Shown here in pieces: positions 6,001 to 9,000 of a stretch of DNA of 17,565 nt. Every line of letters starts with the position of its first letter. The stretch's first letter is position 1. The stretch is taken from positions 1 through 17,565 of the forward strand of contig JBJMMA010000078.1 of assembly GCA_045805065.1 (NCBI GenBank). Reading direction: 5' to 3'. Position numbers: made by a program. Source of the DNA: Bdellovibrionia bacterium. GTDB taxonomy: Bacteria; Bdellovibrionota; UBA1018.

Positions 6001-9000
6001 AAATGGGAGAAGAGATTCAGATACTCAATGTGGCAGTCGATCTGCCTTACCGAGGCTTGGGTCTTGCCCAGAAATTGATCCGAAAAGTGGCCGATATGGC
6101 ACTCAAAAAAGGGCTAAAGAAGGTGACGCTGGACGTTAGAAAGTCCAATAACGCAGCCATCCAGCTCTATCAGAAGCTCGGTTTCACGATCCAAACAGTC
6201 CGAAAAGCCTTCTACTCAAATAGCGAAGATGCTTACGGAATGATCCTCGATCTGACGGTTGAGAAGACCTTCGAATTTTAAAGACCGAGCGCTTTAGTTT
6301 GTCTTAACTATTCCCTGCTTTACAAGGCTAGAAGCGGCTGGATAAGGTCCGCCCGCTTATGAAGTTTATTCAAGCGGCTTTGAAAACGGGCCAACTGCTC
6401 GTTCAAAAAGTTTTGATTTTCACCCTCGCGATCGGTTTTGTGTCGGCCTTCTGGTCGGCGATTTCTCTCCCGCAAACTCCAACGGATGATTTTGGATTTG
6501 GAGCGCATCGCTCTTCTCGTCCGACTTCGGTTGCGGGAATGTCCTACCGGGTGATCACCGCGATTCTTTCTGAGCGGATGACCTCAGCCTCTCAAGATCA
6601 GATCGACCGACTCGCCAAGCACATCATCTTTCTCTGTCAGCGATATCACTTTGATCCTGCTTTCATTCTTTCGATGATCCAGGTCGAAAGCGGATTTAAT
6701 CCAAGTGCCCTGTCTCCCGCCGGAGCAGTCGGACTCATGCAGCTCATGCCTGCCACAGCCACCGTCGTGGTCCGCGATATGAATCCACCTCTGGATAAGA
6801 AGACCCTGGAGAGCATCAAAAAGACCGCAACTCCCGAAAATCGATTCGTAGCGATGAGCCGCCAACTTCTAGTCGACCCGGTTGTCAATTTGACCCTAGG
6901 GGTGGCGTACCTGGCCTCCCTCCGGGAGCATTACCGCGAGCTCCATCCTTATTACGTTCTGGCTGCCTATAATATGGGACCAGCAAGAATTGATGAGCTG
7001 ATGTCGAAAAAGACATTCAAACCTGATAAGACCAAGAAATATTTTGAAGCGATCCGCCAAGGGACTTCCCAGTTCCGCCTCTACCGGGCTAACCGCCGGC
7101 CTGCATTCGTTGCAGCCTCCTAGCAGTTAATCCCGCGAACGGTGGCTGTTTTGTCATCGTGCCGGCTCGCGCTAGCTAAGAGAGGTTTAGGTTTTAAATA
7201 TGTACGAACTCCGTGTGAAGGTTGATTTCCCCGCCGCTCACCACCTGACTGGCTATCCGGGCGACTGCGCTCGTCCCCATGGACATAACTGGGTGCTCGA
7301 GGTTTACGCTCGCTCAACGAAGCTGGATTCCATCGGAATGGCGATGGATTTCCGCGATCTCAAGAAGGCAGCAAAAGAACTTGTGGCGCCTTGGGACCAT
7401 CAGGATTTGAATCTTCTGGATGACTTCAAGACGATCAATCCATCGGCAGAAGCGATCGCGCGCCTTTCTTATGAGCGCTTGGCGAACTTACTCGATGGGG
7501 CTGAAACCTGGGTCGATAAAGTCACGATCTGGGAAAACGAACGCTGCTCGGCGACCTATTATGGTGAGCGCTCGATTGAGCGTTTAAGCCAAAAGCTCAT
7601 TGCCCAAGACAACGCTCGGGCGTCGAATAAGGCTTAAGGAGCACGCTCATGCGTCAGCCTTCAGTCATTCTTTTATCGGGTGGGCTTGACTCGACCGCGA
7701 ACCTTGCTTTTGCTTGCGAGTATGACGAGCCAGTCTTGGCTCTTACGATTCGTTACGGTCAGCGCGCGGCAGAGCGTGAGGTGATCGCGGCTCGTGGTCT
7801 TTGCGAGTATTACGGAGTTGAGCACCAGGTGATGGATCTCTCCTGGCTGGGTGCTTTGGGCGGAAGCTCTTTGACCCAGAGCTCGATGTCGGTTCCAGAG
7901 CTGAAGACCTCCGAGCTGGATGATCTTTCTGTGATTCAAGACACGGCAAAATCCGTTTGGGTTCCAAACCGTAACGGCGTTTTCATCAACGTTGCCGCAG
8001 CCTGGGCCGAACGTCGCGGAGCCAAGCGCGTGGTCGTTGGATTTAACCGCGAAGAGGCAACGACCTTCCCGGATAATTCGATCGATTTTTTGAATCGCTC
8101 GACGCGCTCCCTGGAACTCTCCACCGCCAATCATGTCGAAGTGTTCTGCTACACGGCTGCATGGGATAAGCGCGAGATTGTTCGCGAGCTTGAAAAACTT
8201 TCCAAGCCCTTTCCGTTTGAAAAGGTTTGGAGCTGCTACATGGGAGGCGAGACGGCTTGCGGAAAATGCGAATCTTGCCAACGTCTGTCGCGCGCGCTTT
8301 CGGTTCGCACCGGGAATAAAGGGGCTTAAATAGTGAATACTTCTCTGACGACCTTGTTTTCCAAGACAGAGCGAACCTATACAGGCCCTGAGCTCAGACC
8401 TCATTTTTTGCTTACCGAGCTCAAGCTTGAAGGATCAGGGATTGGCGCTTTCATCGGCCCGTGCCGAGTCGAGACCGCTCATCTCGTCGATTGGGAAGAT
8501 CGCCTGGCCAATGACCGGATCGAAGCCAAGAAGATGGTTCATTTCATTGGGGAGTTCTTTGGCGCCTCTCTTCGTGAGGGCGTTTTGATTCAAAGACTTT
8601 TCATGGCCAACGCTTTTGATACGCTCCGAGAAAGGCTTGAAGCTTCGGGCAAGTTTGGAGTGCTGCGCCGCGATGGGGATGATCTTTTTGTTCGGGGTGA
8701 AAAAGGGGAGCGAAAGCTCTCTGTATCGATCGTGACCGCATCCCCGGTCTCGCAGCTTCTTCATGCGGGAATTAATATCGACCCAACCGGCGCTCCTGTG
8801 CCGGCAGTTGGGCTGGCTGAACTTGGCGTGGATCCTACGGAATGGGTCCCAGCTCTTCTCGAGCGCTTTGCGAAGGAATGGAAAGGCATGGAGTGGGCTT
8901 GCGTGAAAGTCCGTCCCGTGGTGTAGGTATTCTATGAGCTACAACCAGGTTCCTGAATACATTCGCAAGCTTGTTCCCTATGTTCCTGGGAAGCCGATCG

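What a model noticed while it worked through the whole genome (the two positions that open the first line are those of the whole stretch)
7200..8926. DUF366 is a biotin/lipoate-ligase-fold protein embedded in the queD-queC (preQ0) operon
g01133 (197 aa, Pfam DUF366, no assigned function) follows queD (g01131, PTPS) and queC (g01132) with gaps of 11 and 3 nt on the same strand (C78:7200-8926), i.e. as the third cistron of the 7-deazaguanine (preQ0) operon, while queE sits apart behind the c-di-GMP riboswitch. The link is not local chance: of 2,614 genomes that carry both QueC and DUF366, 1,590 (61%) have them within two genes (queD-queC themselves: 28%), and 63 of 115 genomes of this order do. 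The predicted structure (and the unannotated archaeal crystal structure 2DDZ it matches) has the catalytic fold of biotin-protein ligase / lipoate-protein ligase (class-II aaRS-like adenylate-forming enzymes), with ~65 invariant residue [...]
Evidence so far: Gene order and spacing; neighbours.tsv: QueC-DUF366 near in 1,590 of 2,614 genomes (0.608), PTPS-DUF366 897 of 2,683, PTPS-QueC 18,506 of 65,491 (0.283); relatives.tsv: DUF366 in 457 of 850 Bdellovibrionota, 2,195 of 189,784 bacterial and 761 of 10,118 archaeal genomes; scan of 201 phylum genomes: 120 with DUF366. phmmer vs PDB: only 2DDZ, 'hypothetical protein', E 9e-23. AlphaFold (17-sequence alignment) pLDDT 86.5, pTM 0.84; VIA-align: 2DDZ Z 23.1, then 18 biotin/lipoate-ligase-family chains in a row, Z 12.8-8.7 (2ej9, 2qht LipB, 1wnl, 3rux BirA, 3a7u, 2ars LplA), then class-II aaRS cores Z 7.4-5. 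Invariant columns in call 187. Full-text searches for DUF366 (whole word), COG2029, PF04017, [...]
(Added by a program. Inside this text positions count along the whole contig: contig position 1 is position 1 of the stretch shown here. "Call 12" and the like, gene names such as g00115 and contig names such as C1 are that model's own, and its searches are not shown. The text may have been shortened before it was handed on; [...] marks where a part breaks off. The agent that wrote the report below was given it as the finding of a first reader that could run no searches.)

Follow-up and report, generated by a model that had tools for sequence, protein, structure and literature searches.

The report
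DUF366, partner of a variant QueC
A small uncharacterised protein with the fold of biotin and lipoate ligases travels with, and is sometimes fused to, an unusual form of the enzyme QueC, so the two probably work together to make the 7-deazaguanine precursor preQ0.

Summary
queD (7200-7637), queC (7649-8329) and a DUF366 gene (8333-8926) lie head to tail with gaps of 11 and 3 nt. The fold claim also holds. The AlphaFold model has pLDDT 97. It matches 2DDZ at Z 27.1, followed by 18 biotin/lipoate-ligase chains at Z 12.9-9.2.

New findings:
- The adjacent QueC is a distinct subtype ("type B": FPDNS instead of YPDCR, WVPNRNG, no C-terminal tail). It forms one split with 100/100 support.
- In 201 genomes of the phylum, 105 of 107 with the type-B motif also carry DUF366. 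In 102 of 116 DUF366 genomes the motif lies 322-482 nt upstream.
- In WOR-3, Nitrospirota and Planctomycetota, DUF366 sits next to a QueE-like radical-SAM gene instead.
- Two natural QueC-DUF366 fusion proteins exist.
- The invariant Lys128 aligns with the catalytic lysine of biotin ligases.

Best reading (0.5): DUF366 is the second component of a two-protein preQ0 synthase that acts on 7-carboxy-7-deazaguanine. The chemistry is inferred, not shown. A few genomes keep DUF366 without QueC. No paper on DUF366 was found.

The parts
7200..7637 (+). queD (6-carboxytetrahydropterin synthase, PTPS family), first cistron of the cassette
   Evidence: PF01242 E 4.8e-36. NCBIfam QueD TIGR03367 scores 86.4 bits, just under its cut-off of 89.25. 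This QueD type was not found with this query in three genomes of the same family that carry canonical QueC and no DUF366.
7649..8329 (+). queC, 'type B' subtype of 7-cyano-7-deazaguanine synthase
   Evidence: PF06508 E 1.7e-53. TIGR00364 scores 173 bits against a cut-off of 150. It is the only full-length QueC hit in the assembly. It groups with the DUF366-associated QueCs at 100/100 support.
7958..7977 (+). codons for W-V-P-N-R-N-G, the type-B form of the QueC VPxRN motif
   Evidence: The pattern hits 107 of 201 phylum genomes; the reversed control hits none. W104 is present in 20 of 20 type-B rows and 0 of 14 type-A rows.
8066..8080 (+). codons for F-P-D-N-S, which replaces the canonical QueC motif Y-P-D-C-R
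   Evidence: Read from the sequence. F140, N143 and S144 are present in 20 of 20 type-B rows. All 14 type-A rows have Y and C, and 13 of 14 have R. YPDC is a defining motif of canonical QueC (PMC13329287, section 4 read).
8333..8926 (+). DUF366 gene (197 aa, GTG start), a single domain with the BPL/LplA/LipB-like fold
   Evidence: PF04017 E 8.3e-44. Model pLDDT 97.0. 2ddz Z 27.1, BPL/LplA/LipB chains Z 12.9-9.2. Foldseek 2ddz E 1e-19, LplA/BPL E 5e-7 to 4e-5.
8714..8716 (+). codon of Lys128, invariant in the family; proposed active-site lysine
   Evidence: K in 124 of 124 sequences. It aligns with the invariant lysine of biotin protein ligases in an HMM alignment to 2eay (E 0.013) and in hhalign against 21 BirA-type proteins (probability 64%, E 6.5e-5).

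Best explanation
DUF366 is the dedicated partner of a divergent QueC ('type B'). [quoted passage not shown]

Shown:
- DUF366 has the catalytic-module fold of biotin/lipoate ligases and keeps the lysine, aspartate and asparagine that line their adenylate site.
- It is encoded next to type-B QueC or next to QueE, and is sometimes fused to QueC.
- Type-B QueC and DUF366 co-occur almost one to one.
- The host genome has QueF and TGT, and so needs preQ0.

Inferred: DUF366 binds and activates the CDG carboxylate, or holds CDG-AMP or the amide intermediate ADG, in its ligase-like pocket. It works on, or hands over to, the type-B QueC, whose substrate-side motif (YPDCR to FPDNS) and C-terminal tail are altered. 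My preferred version is a division of labour. DUF366 makes the amide from the carboxylate with ATP and ammonia, the chemistry of class-II-like amide synthetases such as AsnA. The PP-loop QueC dehydrates the amide to the nitrile. This split is a guess.
For: (1) Context within the phylum. QueC lies directly upstream on the same strand in 30 of 30 loci. In 102 of 116 DUF366 genomes the type-B motif lies 322-482 nt (median 370) upstream on the same strand. At least 2 of the 11 DUF366 genomes without the exact motif (G137, G184) also have an adjacent type-B QueC with a variant motif.

(2) Context in other phyla. Of 29 loci, 17 have QueC directly upstream and 10 have a QueE-like radical-SAM gene directly downstream (WOR-3, Nitrospirota, Planctomycetota); one more has queD-queC 2.9 kb away. 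Two further WOR-3 genomes show the same DUF366-rSAM pair. The best NCBIfam hits of these rSAM proteins are QueE models, but under the cut-offs. QueE and QueC share one metabolite, CDG.

(3) Fusions. P0067 (461 aa) and P0140 (438 aa) carry QueC followed by DUF366. Both QueC halves have the type-B motifs. Each fusion was seen on 2 contigs, and P0067 has a further NCBI member.

(4) Co-variation. Type-B QueC forms one split with 100/100 support on a stem of 1.77 substitutions per site. Nine columns discriminate fully between 20 type-B and 14 type-A rows. Of 107 motif-bearing genomes, 105 have DUF366, and 83 genomes have neither. In 81 WOR-3 genomes, the only 3 QueCs in the low score band (172-176 bits, against at least 209 bits for the other 21) are in the 3 genomes with a full, high-scoring DUF366. 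There the genes are not linked.

(5) Functional equivalence. Within the window's own family, 9 of 13 genomes have type B plus DUF366 and 3 have canonical QueC without DUF366. QueE is the same lineage in both sets (55-75% identity).

(6) preQ0 is needed. The assembly has QueF, two TGT copies and a QueE-like gene, and type B is its only full-length QueC.

(7) Active site. K128 and D53 are invariant in 124 sequences. K128, D117 and N148 align with K, D (of PND) and N (of GxGxN) of biotin ligases. The PDB holds P. horikoshii BPL mutants at K111 and D104. That these two residues are catalytic and are the equivalents of K128 and D117 is my recollection, not a call result.

(8) Decay without QueC. 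The orphan DUF366 of two QueC-less WOR-3 genomes has K128R, H144Y, N148H and D117E.

(9) The motifs changed in type B lie at the substrate side of the QueC pocket (PMC13329287; passages of preprint 10.64898/2026.04.15.718813).
Against: - No biochemical or genetic data exist for any DUF366 protein.
- Canonical QueC does both steps alone (preprint introduction; the original single-enzyme report is recalled, not read), so a partner is not chemically required.
- The co-variation could partly reflect inheritance of one cassette. The canonical-QueC genomes of the same family also lack the window-type QueD, and their QueC is not at the syntenic site.
- G189 (95% complete) has lost queD and queC from the syntenic site. 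It has no QueC hit better than E 1.5e-4 and no QueE hit with the own-genome QueE query, yet it keeps a DUF366 with K128, H144 and N148 intact.
- The WOR-3 chromosome G202 has DUF366 plus the QueE-like gene but no QueC or QueD hit.
- DUF366 lacks the GRGRxxRxW loop that binds biotin and ATP in biotin ligases, and PF03099 does not detect it. ATP use is therefore not established.
- One of five metagenome loci (L087) shows no Q gene nearby.
- The loss of His in YxQxHxxE is not specific to type B: 4 of 14 type-A rows also lack it.
Confidence: 0.5

Rival explanations
1. DUF366 is an independent ligase-type enzyme on a side branch of 7-deazaguanine metabolism. It might ligate CDG to an amine acceptor (a protein lysine or a small amine, as biotin and lipoate ligases do with their acids), or salvage CDG or ADG. 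It would not be a subunit of the preQ0 synthase.
For: The fold and the conserved lysine are those of enzymes that adenylate a carboxylic acid and pass it to an amine. QueC relatives that attach CDG to amines exist (RoyL; Cap9 and QatC are named in abstracts). DUF366 persists with intact key residues in G189 without QueC, and in G202 with the QueE-like gene but no QueC. Clp_N-DUF366 fusions hint at a protein partner.
Against: It does not explain why DUF366 goes with one particular QueC subtype (105 of 107; 3 of 3 in WOR-3) and almost never with canonical QueC. It does not explain why it is fused to QueC. No candidate acceptor gene is conserved beside it. DUF366 lacks the C-terminal domains with which BPL and LplA hold their protein substrates; it is one domain of about 185-197 aa.
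Confidence: 0.2
2. DUF366 is a non-catalytic ligand-binding protein. It would carry or buffer CDG or preQ0 between QueE and QueC, act as a lid for the tail-less type-B QueC, or act as a regulatory subunit.
For: It sits next to QueE in some phyla and next to QueC in others, as a go-between might. Type-B QueC lacks the C-terminal tail of canonical QueC. Pseudo-enzymes of this fold are known, for example HisZ and the Pol gamma accessory subunit, which appear lower in the fold list. DUF366 has no GRGR-type ATP loop. PH0223 self-associates (Table 1 of PMC1414084).
Against: An invariant lysine and aspartate, plus about 26 columns at 90% or more with many polar residues (H70, E74, Q87, R88, R113, D117, S132, S140, H144, N148), look like an active site. 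The lysine is the one that does the chemistry in the ligases.
Confidence: 0.15
3. DUF366 has nothing to do with queuosine. It rides in the same operon by chance or for co-regulation with unrelated housekeeping genes.
For: In the window the co-directional run continues into hisC-like, cmk, heptosyltransferase and kinase genes with equally small gaps. Some loci show no Q gene nearby (L087, L094, L095).
Against: The association recurs in several bacterial phyla with different partners (QueC or QueE) and different flanking genes. Two fusion clusters exist. The co-occurrence with a QueC subtype holds even where the genes are unlinked.
Confidence: 0.05

Closest known systems
PH0223 of Pyrococcus horikoshii (PDB 2DDZ), an unannotated structural-genomics entry
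   Same: Same family: phmmer E 8.7e-23, profile E 2.7e-58, Z 27.1 with rmsd 1.5 over 184 residues. The motif around the lysine (GDDIYV..RKLSISIAT) is the same.
   Different: It is archaeal and has no function assigned. The only published datum found is self-interaction in a two-hybrid screen (PMC1414084 Table 1). Its genomic context could not be examined here.
Biotin protein ligases (BirA/BPL, PF03099; e.g. 2ej9, 1wnl, 2eay, 3rux)
   Same: Same catalytic-module fold (Z 12.9-11.7; Foldseek E about 1e-6 to 1e-5, TM about 0.5-0.6). The second half of the active site aligns: RxGDD(L)(Y/F) with KWPND(L), K128 with the invariant lysine, and HxGxN with GxGxN.
   Different: DUF366 has no GRGRxxRxW loop, no C-terminal SH3-like domain and no PF03099 match. 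Sequence identity is 8-14%. Its gene context is 7-deazaguanine, not biotin.
Lipoate-protein ligase A and octanoyltransferase LipB (2ars, 1x2g, 2qht)
   Same: Same fold (Z 12.4-9.4; Foldseek E 5e-7 for LplA). That this family also relies on one conserved lysine is recalled, not tested here.
   Different: DUF366 has no accessory domain. LipB shows that the fold can transfer acyl groups without ATP, so ATP use by DUF366 is not guaranteed.
Canonical one-protein QueC (E. coli, B. subtilis; cluster 1 of PF06508)
   Same: The neighbouring gene is a QueC by Pfam and NCBIfam. It keeps SGGLDS, the VPxRN core and the four zinc cysteines.
   Different: The type-B neighbour has FPDNS for YPDCR, WVPNRNG, YGQ(x)5E without the His, an insert of about 10 residues, and no C-terminal tail. 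It almost always comes with DUF366. Canonical QueC works alone.
QueC-family amide synthetases (RoyL; Cap9 and QatC in phage defence)
   Same: They show that CDG-AMP can be passed to amines other than ammonia, and that the YxQxHxxE region is the amine site (passages of 10.64898/2026.04.15.718813; abstracts listed).
   Different: They are QueC paralogues that act on proteins or amino acids. None is reported with a BPL-fold partner. Here the QueC is the only one in a genome that needs preQ0.
Asparagine synthetase A (AsnA, 11as), the class-II-aaRS-like ammonia-dependent amide synthetase
   Same: Same superfold (Z 6.1). Its chemistry is carboxylate plus ATP plus ammonia to amide, which is what the first half-reaction CDG to ADG needs (the AsnA chemistry is established knowledge, recalled).
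   Different: The structural match is only distant. It is offered as a chemical analogy, not as a relative.

Membership tests
Pfam DUF366 (PF04017) | Score above the family's gathering threshold over the whole domain | tested here: met
   149.7 bits against 29.9; residues 7-194 match profile positions 3-184 of 184.
BPL/LplA/LipB catalytic-module superfamily (class-II-aaRS-like fold) | The fold itself | tested here: met
   VIA-align ranks 2-19 are all members, at Z 12.9-9.2 with 150-170 residues aligned. Unrelated rows follow at Z 8.6 and below. Foldseek gives probability 1.00, E 5e-7 to 4e-5.
BPL/LplA/LipB catalytic-module superfamily | Conserved lysine on the strand after the (N/D)D(L/V)(Y/F) motif | tested here: met
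   K128 is present in 124 of 124 sequences. It aligns to the invariant K of 21 BirA-type proteins (hhalign probability 64%, E 6.5e-5) and to the lysine of 2eay (E 0.013). The profile scores are marginal, but both place the same residue.
Biotin protein ligase (BirA/BPL) proper | GRGRxxRxW biotin/ATP-binding loop | tested here: not met
   The loop is invariant or nearly so in the 21 BirA-type proteins (Q43, G46, G48, R49, W54). The DUF366 consensus has no such motif, and hhalign aligns only the C-terminal half.
Biotin protein ligase / LplA / LipB (Pfam PF03099) | Match to the family HMM | tested here: not met
   DUF366 has no PF03099 hit. The PF03099 search of the own genome finds one place only, on contig C143, not the window.
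Adenylate-forming enzyme | Substrate-dependent ATP-PPi exchange or acyl-AMP formation | not testable with these tools
   This needs purified protein.
Canonical QueC (cluster 1 signature of PMC13329287), applied to the neighbouring gene | SGGxDS P-loop and the zinc cysteine motif | tested here: met
   SGGLDS and C196, C204, C207, C210 are invariant in 22 type-B sequences. The spacing is C(x)7CxxCxxC rather than C(x)8.
Canonical QueC signature, applied to the neighbouring gene | YPDC motif and the His of YxQxHxxE | tested here: not met
   FPDNS in 20 of 20 type-B rows against YPDCR or YRDCS in 14 of 14 type-A rows. YGQ(x)5E with no conserved His. Caveat: 4 of 14 type-A rows also lack the His.
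Two-protein preQ0 synthase (proposed here, not a known family) | Physical complex of type-B QueC with DUF366 | tested here: inconclusive
   Natural fusions exist. In the AlphaFold model of fusion P0140 both domains fold well, but the linker (residues 242-251) is under pLDDT 50 and pTM is 0.62, so no fixed arrangement is predicted.

The most novel reading that the evidence does not exclude
DUF366 is a new catalytic branch of the biotin/lipoate-ligase superfamily whose substrate is a nucleobase acid. It would adenylate 7-carboxy-7-deazaguanine and amidate it with ammonia. The divergent PP-loop QueC that always accompanies it would only dehydrate the amide to the nitrile.
Probability: 0.25. Interest if true: 0.8.

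Novelty: new variant of a known kind. Interest (0 to 1): 0.72.

Why it matters
The route from GTP to preQ0 is treated as solved, with four enzymes: FolE, QueD, QueE and QueC. If a whole subtype of QueC needs a ligase-fold partner, several things follow.
- The pathway has a fifth, unrecognised component in many Bdellovibrionota, WOR-3, Nitrospirota, Planctomycetota and, by the control genomes, methanogens.
- Annotating 'QueC present' would not be enough for metabolic reconstruction or for heterologous production of 7-deazapurines.
- A 20-year-old structure of unknown function (2DDZ) and a Pfam DUF would gain a role.
- The biotin/lipoate-ligase fold would gain a new kind of substrate.

The proposal can be tested directly with the complementation assay already in use for QueC mutants (PMC13329287).

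Tried and rejected
- Complex prediction of type-B QueC (22-row alignment) with DUF366 (124-row alignment): score 0.00 in both runs, verdict 'no answer'. This is no evidence either way.
- AlphaFold model of the natural fusion P0140, with unpaired rows for each domain: both domains are confident, the linker (residues 242-251) is disordered, and pTM is 0.62. No defined inter-domain packing was obtained.
- The search for related loci with alignments A1 and A2 failed because no stretch was conserved enough. A single central protein, P0027, was used instead.
- No archaeal genome could be reached. The one genome-contig scan returned bacteria only, and the genome search needs a handle as its centre. 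The archaeal half of the family is therefore untested here.
- 'Longer' word-based search for fusions with the window protein found only 4 Clp_N-DUF366 proteins and missed the QueC fusions.
- Phage origin. The ESM Atlas labels one 2,368-member DUF366 cluster as 75% viruses. However, tblastn against 50,697 phage records found a single record, whose neighbours are bacterial housekeeping genes. Three viral-contig scans found none. I do not take DUF366 to be a phage gene.
- I dropped the idea that loss of the His in YxQxHxxE marks type B, because 4 of 14 canonical rows lack it too.
- I dropped the idea that QueE co-varies with DUF366. QueE follows the species groups, not DUF366.
- In-situ replacement of type B by canonical QueC: the canonical gene is not at the syntenic locus.
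- Literature. 'DUF366' as a whole word gave 0 papers. As a word start it gave only DUF3669 and similar among the 20 of 35 papers listed. COG2029, PF04017, 2DDZ and PH0223 gave only the 2005 two-hybrid paper. The one held supplement of PMC13329287 has no PF04017 or DUF366, but its Table S2 may not be among the held files.
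Full report
**What is in the window.** Three genes lie head to tail on the + strand.
- queD: 7200-7637, PTPS family, E 4.8e-36.
- queC: 7649-8329, PF06508, E 1.7e-53; NCBIfam QueC scores 173 bits against a cut-off of 150.
- A 197-residue DUF366 gene: 8333-8926, GTG start, PF04017, 149.7 bits against a cut-off of 29.9.

The gaps are 11 and 3 nt. The co-directional run goes on with an aminotransferase 7 nt downstream, then cmk, a heptosyltransferase and a PfkB kinase. Spacing in this one window therefore proves little. No Rfam family reaches its threshold in the window. NCBIfam has no model that matches DUF366.

**The fold.** I used a 124-row alignment (A1) built from a search of 1.84 billion representatives. 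That search gave 506 hits at E up to 0.001, of which the best 150 were listed. With it, AlphaFold gives pLDDT 97.0 and pTM 0.92.
- An all-against-all structural search puts 2DDZ first: Z 27.1, rmsd 1.5, 184 residues aligned.
- Ranks 2-19 are filled with biotin protein ligases, lipoate-protein ligases and LipB at Z 12.9-9.2.
- The Pol gamma accessory subunit (Z 8.6) and class-II aminoacyl-tRNA synthetases (Z 7 and below) follow. AsnA is at Z 6.1.
- Foldseek agrees: 2ddz E 1e-19, LplA and BPL entries E 5e-7 to 4e-5.

At the sequence level the DUF366 profile reaches the Aquifex biotin ligase 2eay at E 0.013. An hhalign comparison with 21 BirA-type proteins taken from this phylum gives probability 64%, E 6.5e-5 over 93 columns. 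Both alignments place the same residues together:
- R113-x-G-D-D117-L-(Y/F) on K-W-P-N-D-L;
- K128 on the invariant ligase lysine;
- H144-x-G-x-N148 on G-x-G-x-N.

K128 and D53 are the only invariant columns in A1. Twenty-six more are at least 90% conserved, many of them polar. The N-terminal GRGRxxRxW loop of biotin ligases has no counterpart, and PF03099 does not detect DUF366. DUF366 is therefore a separate family of the superfamily, not a biotin or lipoate ligase. I recall that structure classifications list PH0223 in this superfamily, but no call confirmed it.

**The link to preQ0 genes.**
- DUF366 is present in 116 of 201 sampled genomes of the phylum.
- In the 30 best-scoring loci, QueC lies directly upstream on the same strand in 30 of 30.
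- A scan of species-representative genomes with one central family member returned 29 loci from Bdellovibrionota, WOR-3, Nitrospirota, Planctomycetota and unclassified bins.
  - Seventeen have QueC directly upstream (gap at most 172 nt).
  - Ten have a radical-SAM gene of about 230 residues directly downstream (gap at most 167 nt).
  - One has queD-queC 2.9 kb away.
  - One starts at a contig edge.
- The three best NCBIfam hits of that radical-SAM protein are QueE models, but it stays under their cut-offs (88-103 bits against 260). I call it QueE-like.
- Two more WOR-3 genomes show the same DUF366-rSAM pair.
- Of five metagenome loci, one has QueC adjacent, one has a radical-SAM gene two genes downstream, two are too short to judge, and one shows no Q gene.
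- Two clusters of natural fusion proteins, P0067 (461 aa) and P0140 (438 aa), carry QueC followed by DUF366. Each was seen on two contigs, and P0067 has a further NCBI member.

QueE makes CDG and QueC consumes it. That is the one metabolite the two alternative neighbours share.

**A QueC subtype that goes with DUF366.** Pfam QueC scores in the 201 genomes fall into two bands, and the lower band belongs to the DUF366 carriers. I aligned 20 QueCs from DUF366-bearing genomes with 14 from genomes without DUF366 or from second copies. This shows a clean subtype, which I call type B:
- VWVPNRNG;
- GFNxEEAxTFPDNS in place of YPDCR;
- an insert of about ten residues;
- no C-terminal GF..G..DP tail.

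Nine columns discriminate fully (20 of 20 against 0 of 14), among them W104, F140, N143 and S144. In a maximum-likelihood tree the 20 form one split with 100/100 support on a stem of 1.77 substitutions per site. The rows were labelled by genome content, not by sequence. All 34 rows that passed my motif filter were used. QueCs with variant P-loops were dropped by that filter.

A DNA pattern for W-[VIM]-P-N-R-N-G hits 107 of 201 genomes, and the reversed control hits none.
- 105 of the 107 carry DUF366. The exceptions are G009, where the hit is not at its QueC, and G071, whose QueC lies at a contig end.
- 11 carriers lack the exact pattern, and 83 genomes have neither feature.
- In 102 of 116 carriers the pattern lies 322-482 nt upstream of DUF366 on the same strand.
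- Two of the 11 carriers without the pattern (G137, G184) have an adjacent type-B QueC with a one-residue variant.

In 81 WOR-3 genomes DUF366 is rare (7 of 81), and QueC is present in 24. Twenty-one of those QueCs score at least 209 bits. Three score 172-176 bits. Those three are exactly the three genomes with a full, high-scoring DUF366, although there QueC and DUF366 are far apart. All 22 QueCs of alignment A3 have the FxDNS and WxPNRN residues. A3 includes the unlinked QueCs of WOR-3, Nitrospirota and Planctomycetota. Both fusion proteins also have them. Related genomes are not independent, so these counts are descriptive.

**Is the pair equivalent to one canonical QueC?**
- In the window's own family, 9 of 13 sampled genomes have type B plus DUF366. 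Three (G017, G087, G127) have a canonical QueC and no DUF366, and one has neither.
- QueE is the same lineage in both sets (55-75% identity to the window genome's QueE). Across the phylum it follows the family groups, not DUF366.
- Among the rows listed, only 2 of 116 carriers (G151, G125) show an additional canonical-type QueC. That call lists the best 150 matches and leaves 354 unlisted.
- The window's assembly has QueF (113 bits), two TGT genes and a QueE-like gene. It therefore needs preQ0 and has only the type-B enzyme to make it.

Two cautions apply. The three canonical-QueC genomes also lack the window-type QueD, and their QueC is not at the syntenic site. What is exchanged is a queD-queC-DUF366 cassette, and some of the co-variation may be shared inheritance.

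**What the literature says.**
- Libby et al. 2026 (PMC13329287; sections 4 and 8 read) define the canonical QueC signature as SGGxDS, YxQxHxxE, VPxRN, YPDC and the zinc motif. They place YPDC and YxQxHxxE at the mouth of the substrate pocket. They show that Y35A, R99A, Y131A and Y189A are dead and that Y131F is partly active. They do not mention DUF366, and their one held supplement has no PF04017.
- Passages of preprint 10.64898/2026.04.15.718813 describe RoyL, a QueC homologue that passes CDG-AMP to amino acids. The residues of the YxQxHxxE region bind the amine. Arg104, Asn105, Asp132 and Cys139 are modelled at CDG-AMP.
- The residues that set type B apart are thus on the substrate side of the QueC pocket. 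This fits a changed way of receiving or processing the substrate. The fit is an inference.
- PH0223 appears only in a two-hybrid list of self-interacting proteins (PMC1414084 Table 1).
- No paper on DUF366, COG2029, PF04017 or 2DDZ was found in the library. Subscription journals are not covered.

**Results against the reading.**
- G189 (95% complete) keeps SLT-DUF366-hisC-cmk, but queD and queC are gone from the site. It has no QueC hit better than E 1.5e-4 and no QueE hit with the own-genome QueE query. Its DUF366 still has K128, H144 and N148.
- The WOR-3 chromosome G202 has DUF366 next to the QueE-like gene, QueF and a truncated TGT match, but no QueC and no QueD hit.
- Three low-GC WOR-3 genomes (G256, G261, G266) have QueD and TGT, and two of them have QueF. 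They have no QueC and no close QueE-like gene. Their DUF366 sits between DUF4416 and DUF502.
- In G256 and G261 that DUF366 has lost family hallmarks (K128R, H144Y, N148H, D117E, D56T/S). This looks like decay or a change of function once QueC is gone, and so partly supports the link.
- These are draft or metagenome genomes, so absence is not proven.
- The complex prediction gave no verdict, and the fusion model showed no fixed domain packing.

**Conclusion.**
- The most economical account of the new evidence is that DUF366 is the second component of a two-protein preQ0 synthase built around a divergent QueC, acting on CDG or its activated or amidated form. I give this 0.5.
- Within it, I prefer a division of labour in which the ligase-fold protein makes the amide and the PP-loop protein makes the nitrile, at about 0.25 overall.
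- The rivals are a side-branch CDG ligase (0.2), a non-catalytic carrier or lid (0.15), and no relation to queuosine (0.05).
- Nothing about the chemistry is shown. A complementation test and a CDG/ATP assay would settle it.

Noticed in passing
L092:1220-1317 (own genome, contig C193), upstream of the QueE-like gene at L092:1501-2148: A c-di-GMP-I-GGC riboswitch aptamer (RF03167, 62.1 bits, gathering score 59) precedes queE, and a tRNA gene follows at 2256-2328. A second-messenger-type riboswitch variant in front of a queuosine gene is unusual. Its ligand is not established here.
   Followed up: partly
P0025, P0151, P0152, P0153 (metagenome proteins): Four clusters of about 347-residue proteins fuse a Clp_N domain (PF02861) to DUF366. 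Clp_N is a protein-binding module of Clp/Hsp100 chaperones, and what it does here is unexplained.
   Followed up: no
L125 = MW495066.1:108405-124959 ('Microcystis phage MaAM05'): The only phage record with a DUF366 homologue (46% identity) carries it among secF, glyS, mtgA, fabI, engB and fliM. This stretch looks like bacterial DNA filed as phage. The ESM Atlas labels a 2,368-member DUF366 cluster as 75% viruses, which I could not confirm.
   Followed up: partly
L094:4385-6175, L095:3264-5073, L096:4431-4949 (WOR-3 genomes G256, G261, G266): A divergent DUF366 lacking the family's key residues sits in a conserved run: aminotransferase, aspartokinase, ScpB, DUF4416, DUF366, DUF502. These genomes have no QueC hit. 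It may be a neo-functionalised or decaying copy.
   Followed up: partly
own genome, contigs C101:23792-24868 and C183:20822-21877: There are two full-length TGT (PF01702) matches, the second inside a 702-residue open frame. This may be a fused or extended tRNA-guanine transglycosylase paralogue.
   Followed up: no
window 4365-5738 (+) and 13243-14103 (+): Two sizeable ORFs (457 and 286 aa) have no Pfam match at E up to 0.001. The first has a syntenic counterpart without a Pfam hit in a related locus (L037:2619-3974).
   Followed up: no
L130 (G189:C8:13125-19721): This is the syntenic locus with queD and queC deleted but DUF366 retained intact between SLT and hisC. It is a natural 'QueC-less' carrier worth examining for what DUF366 does alone.
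   Followed up: partly
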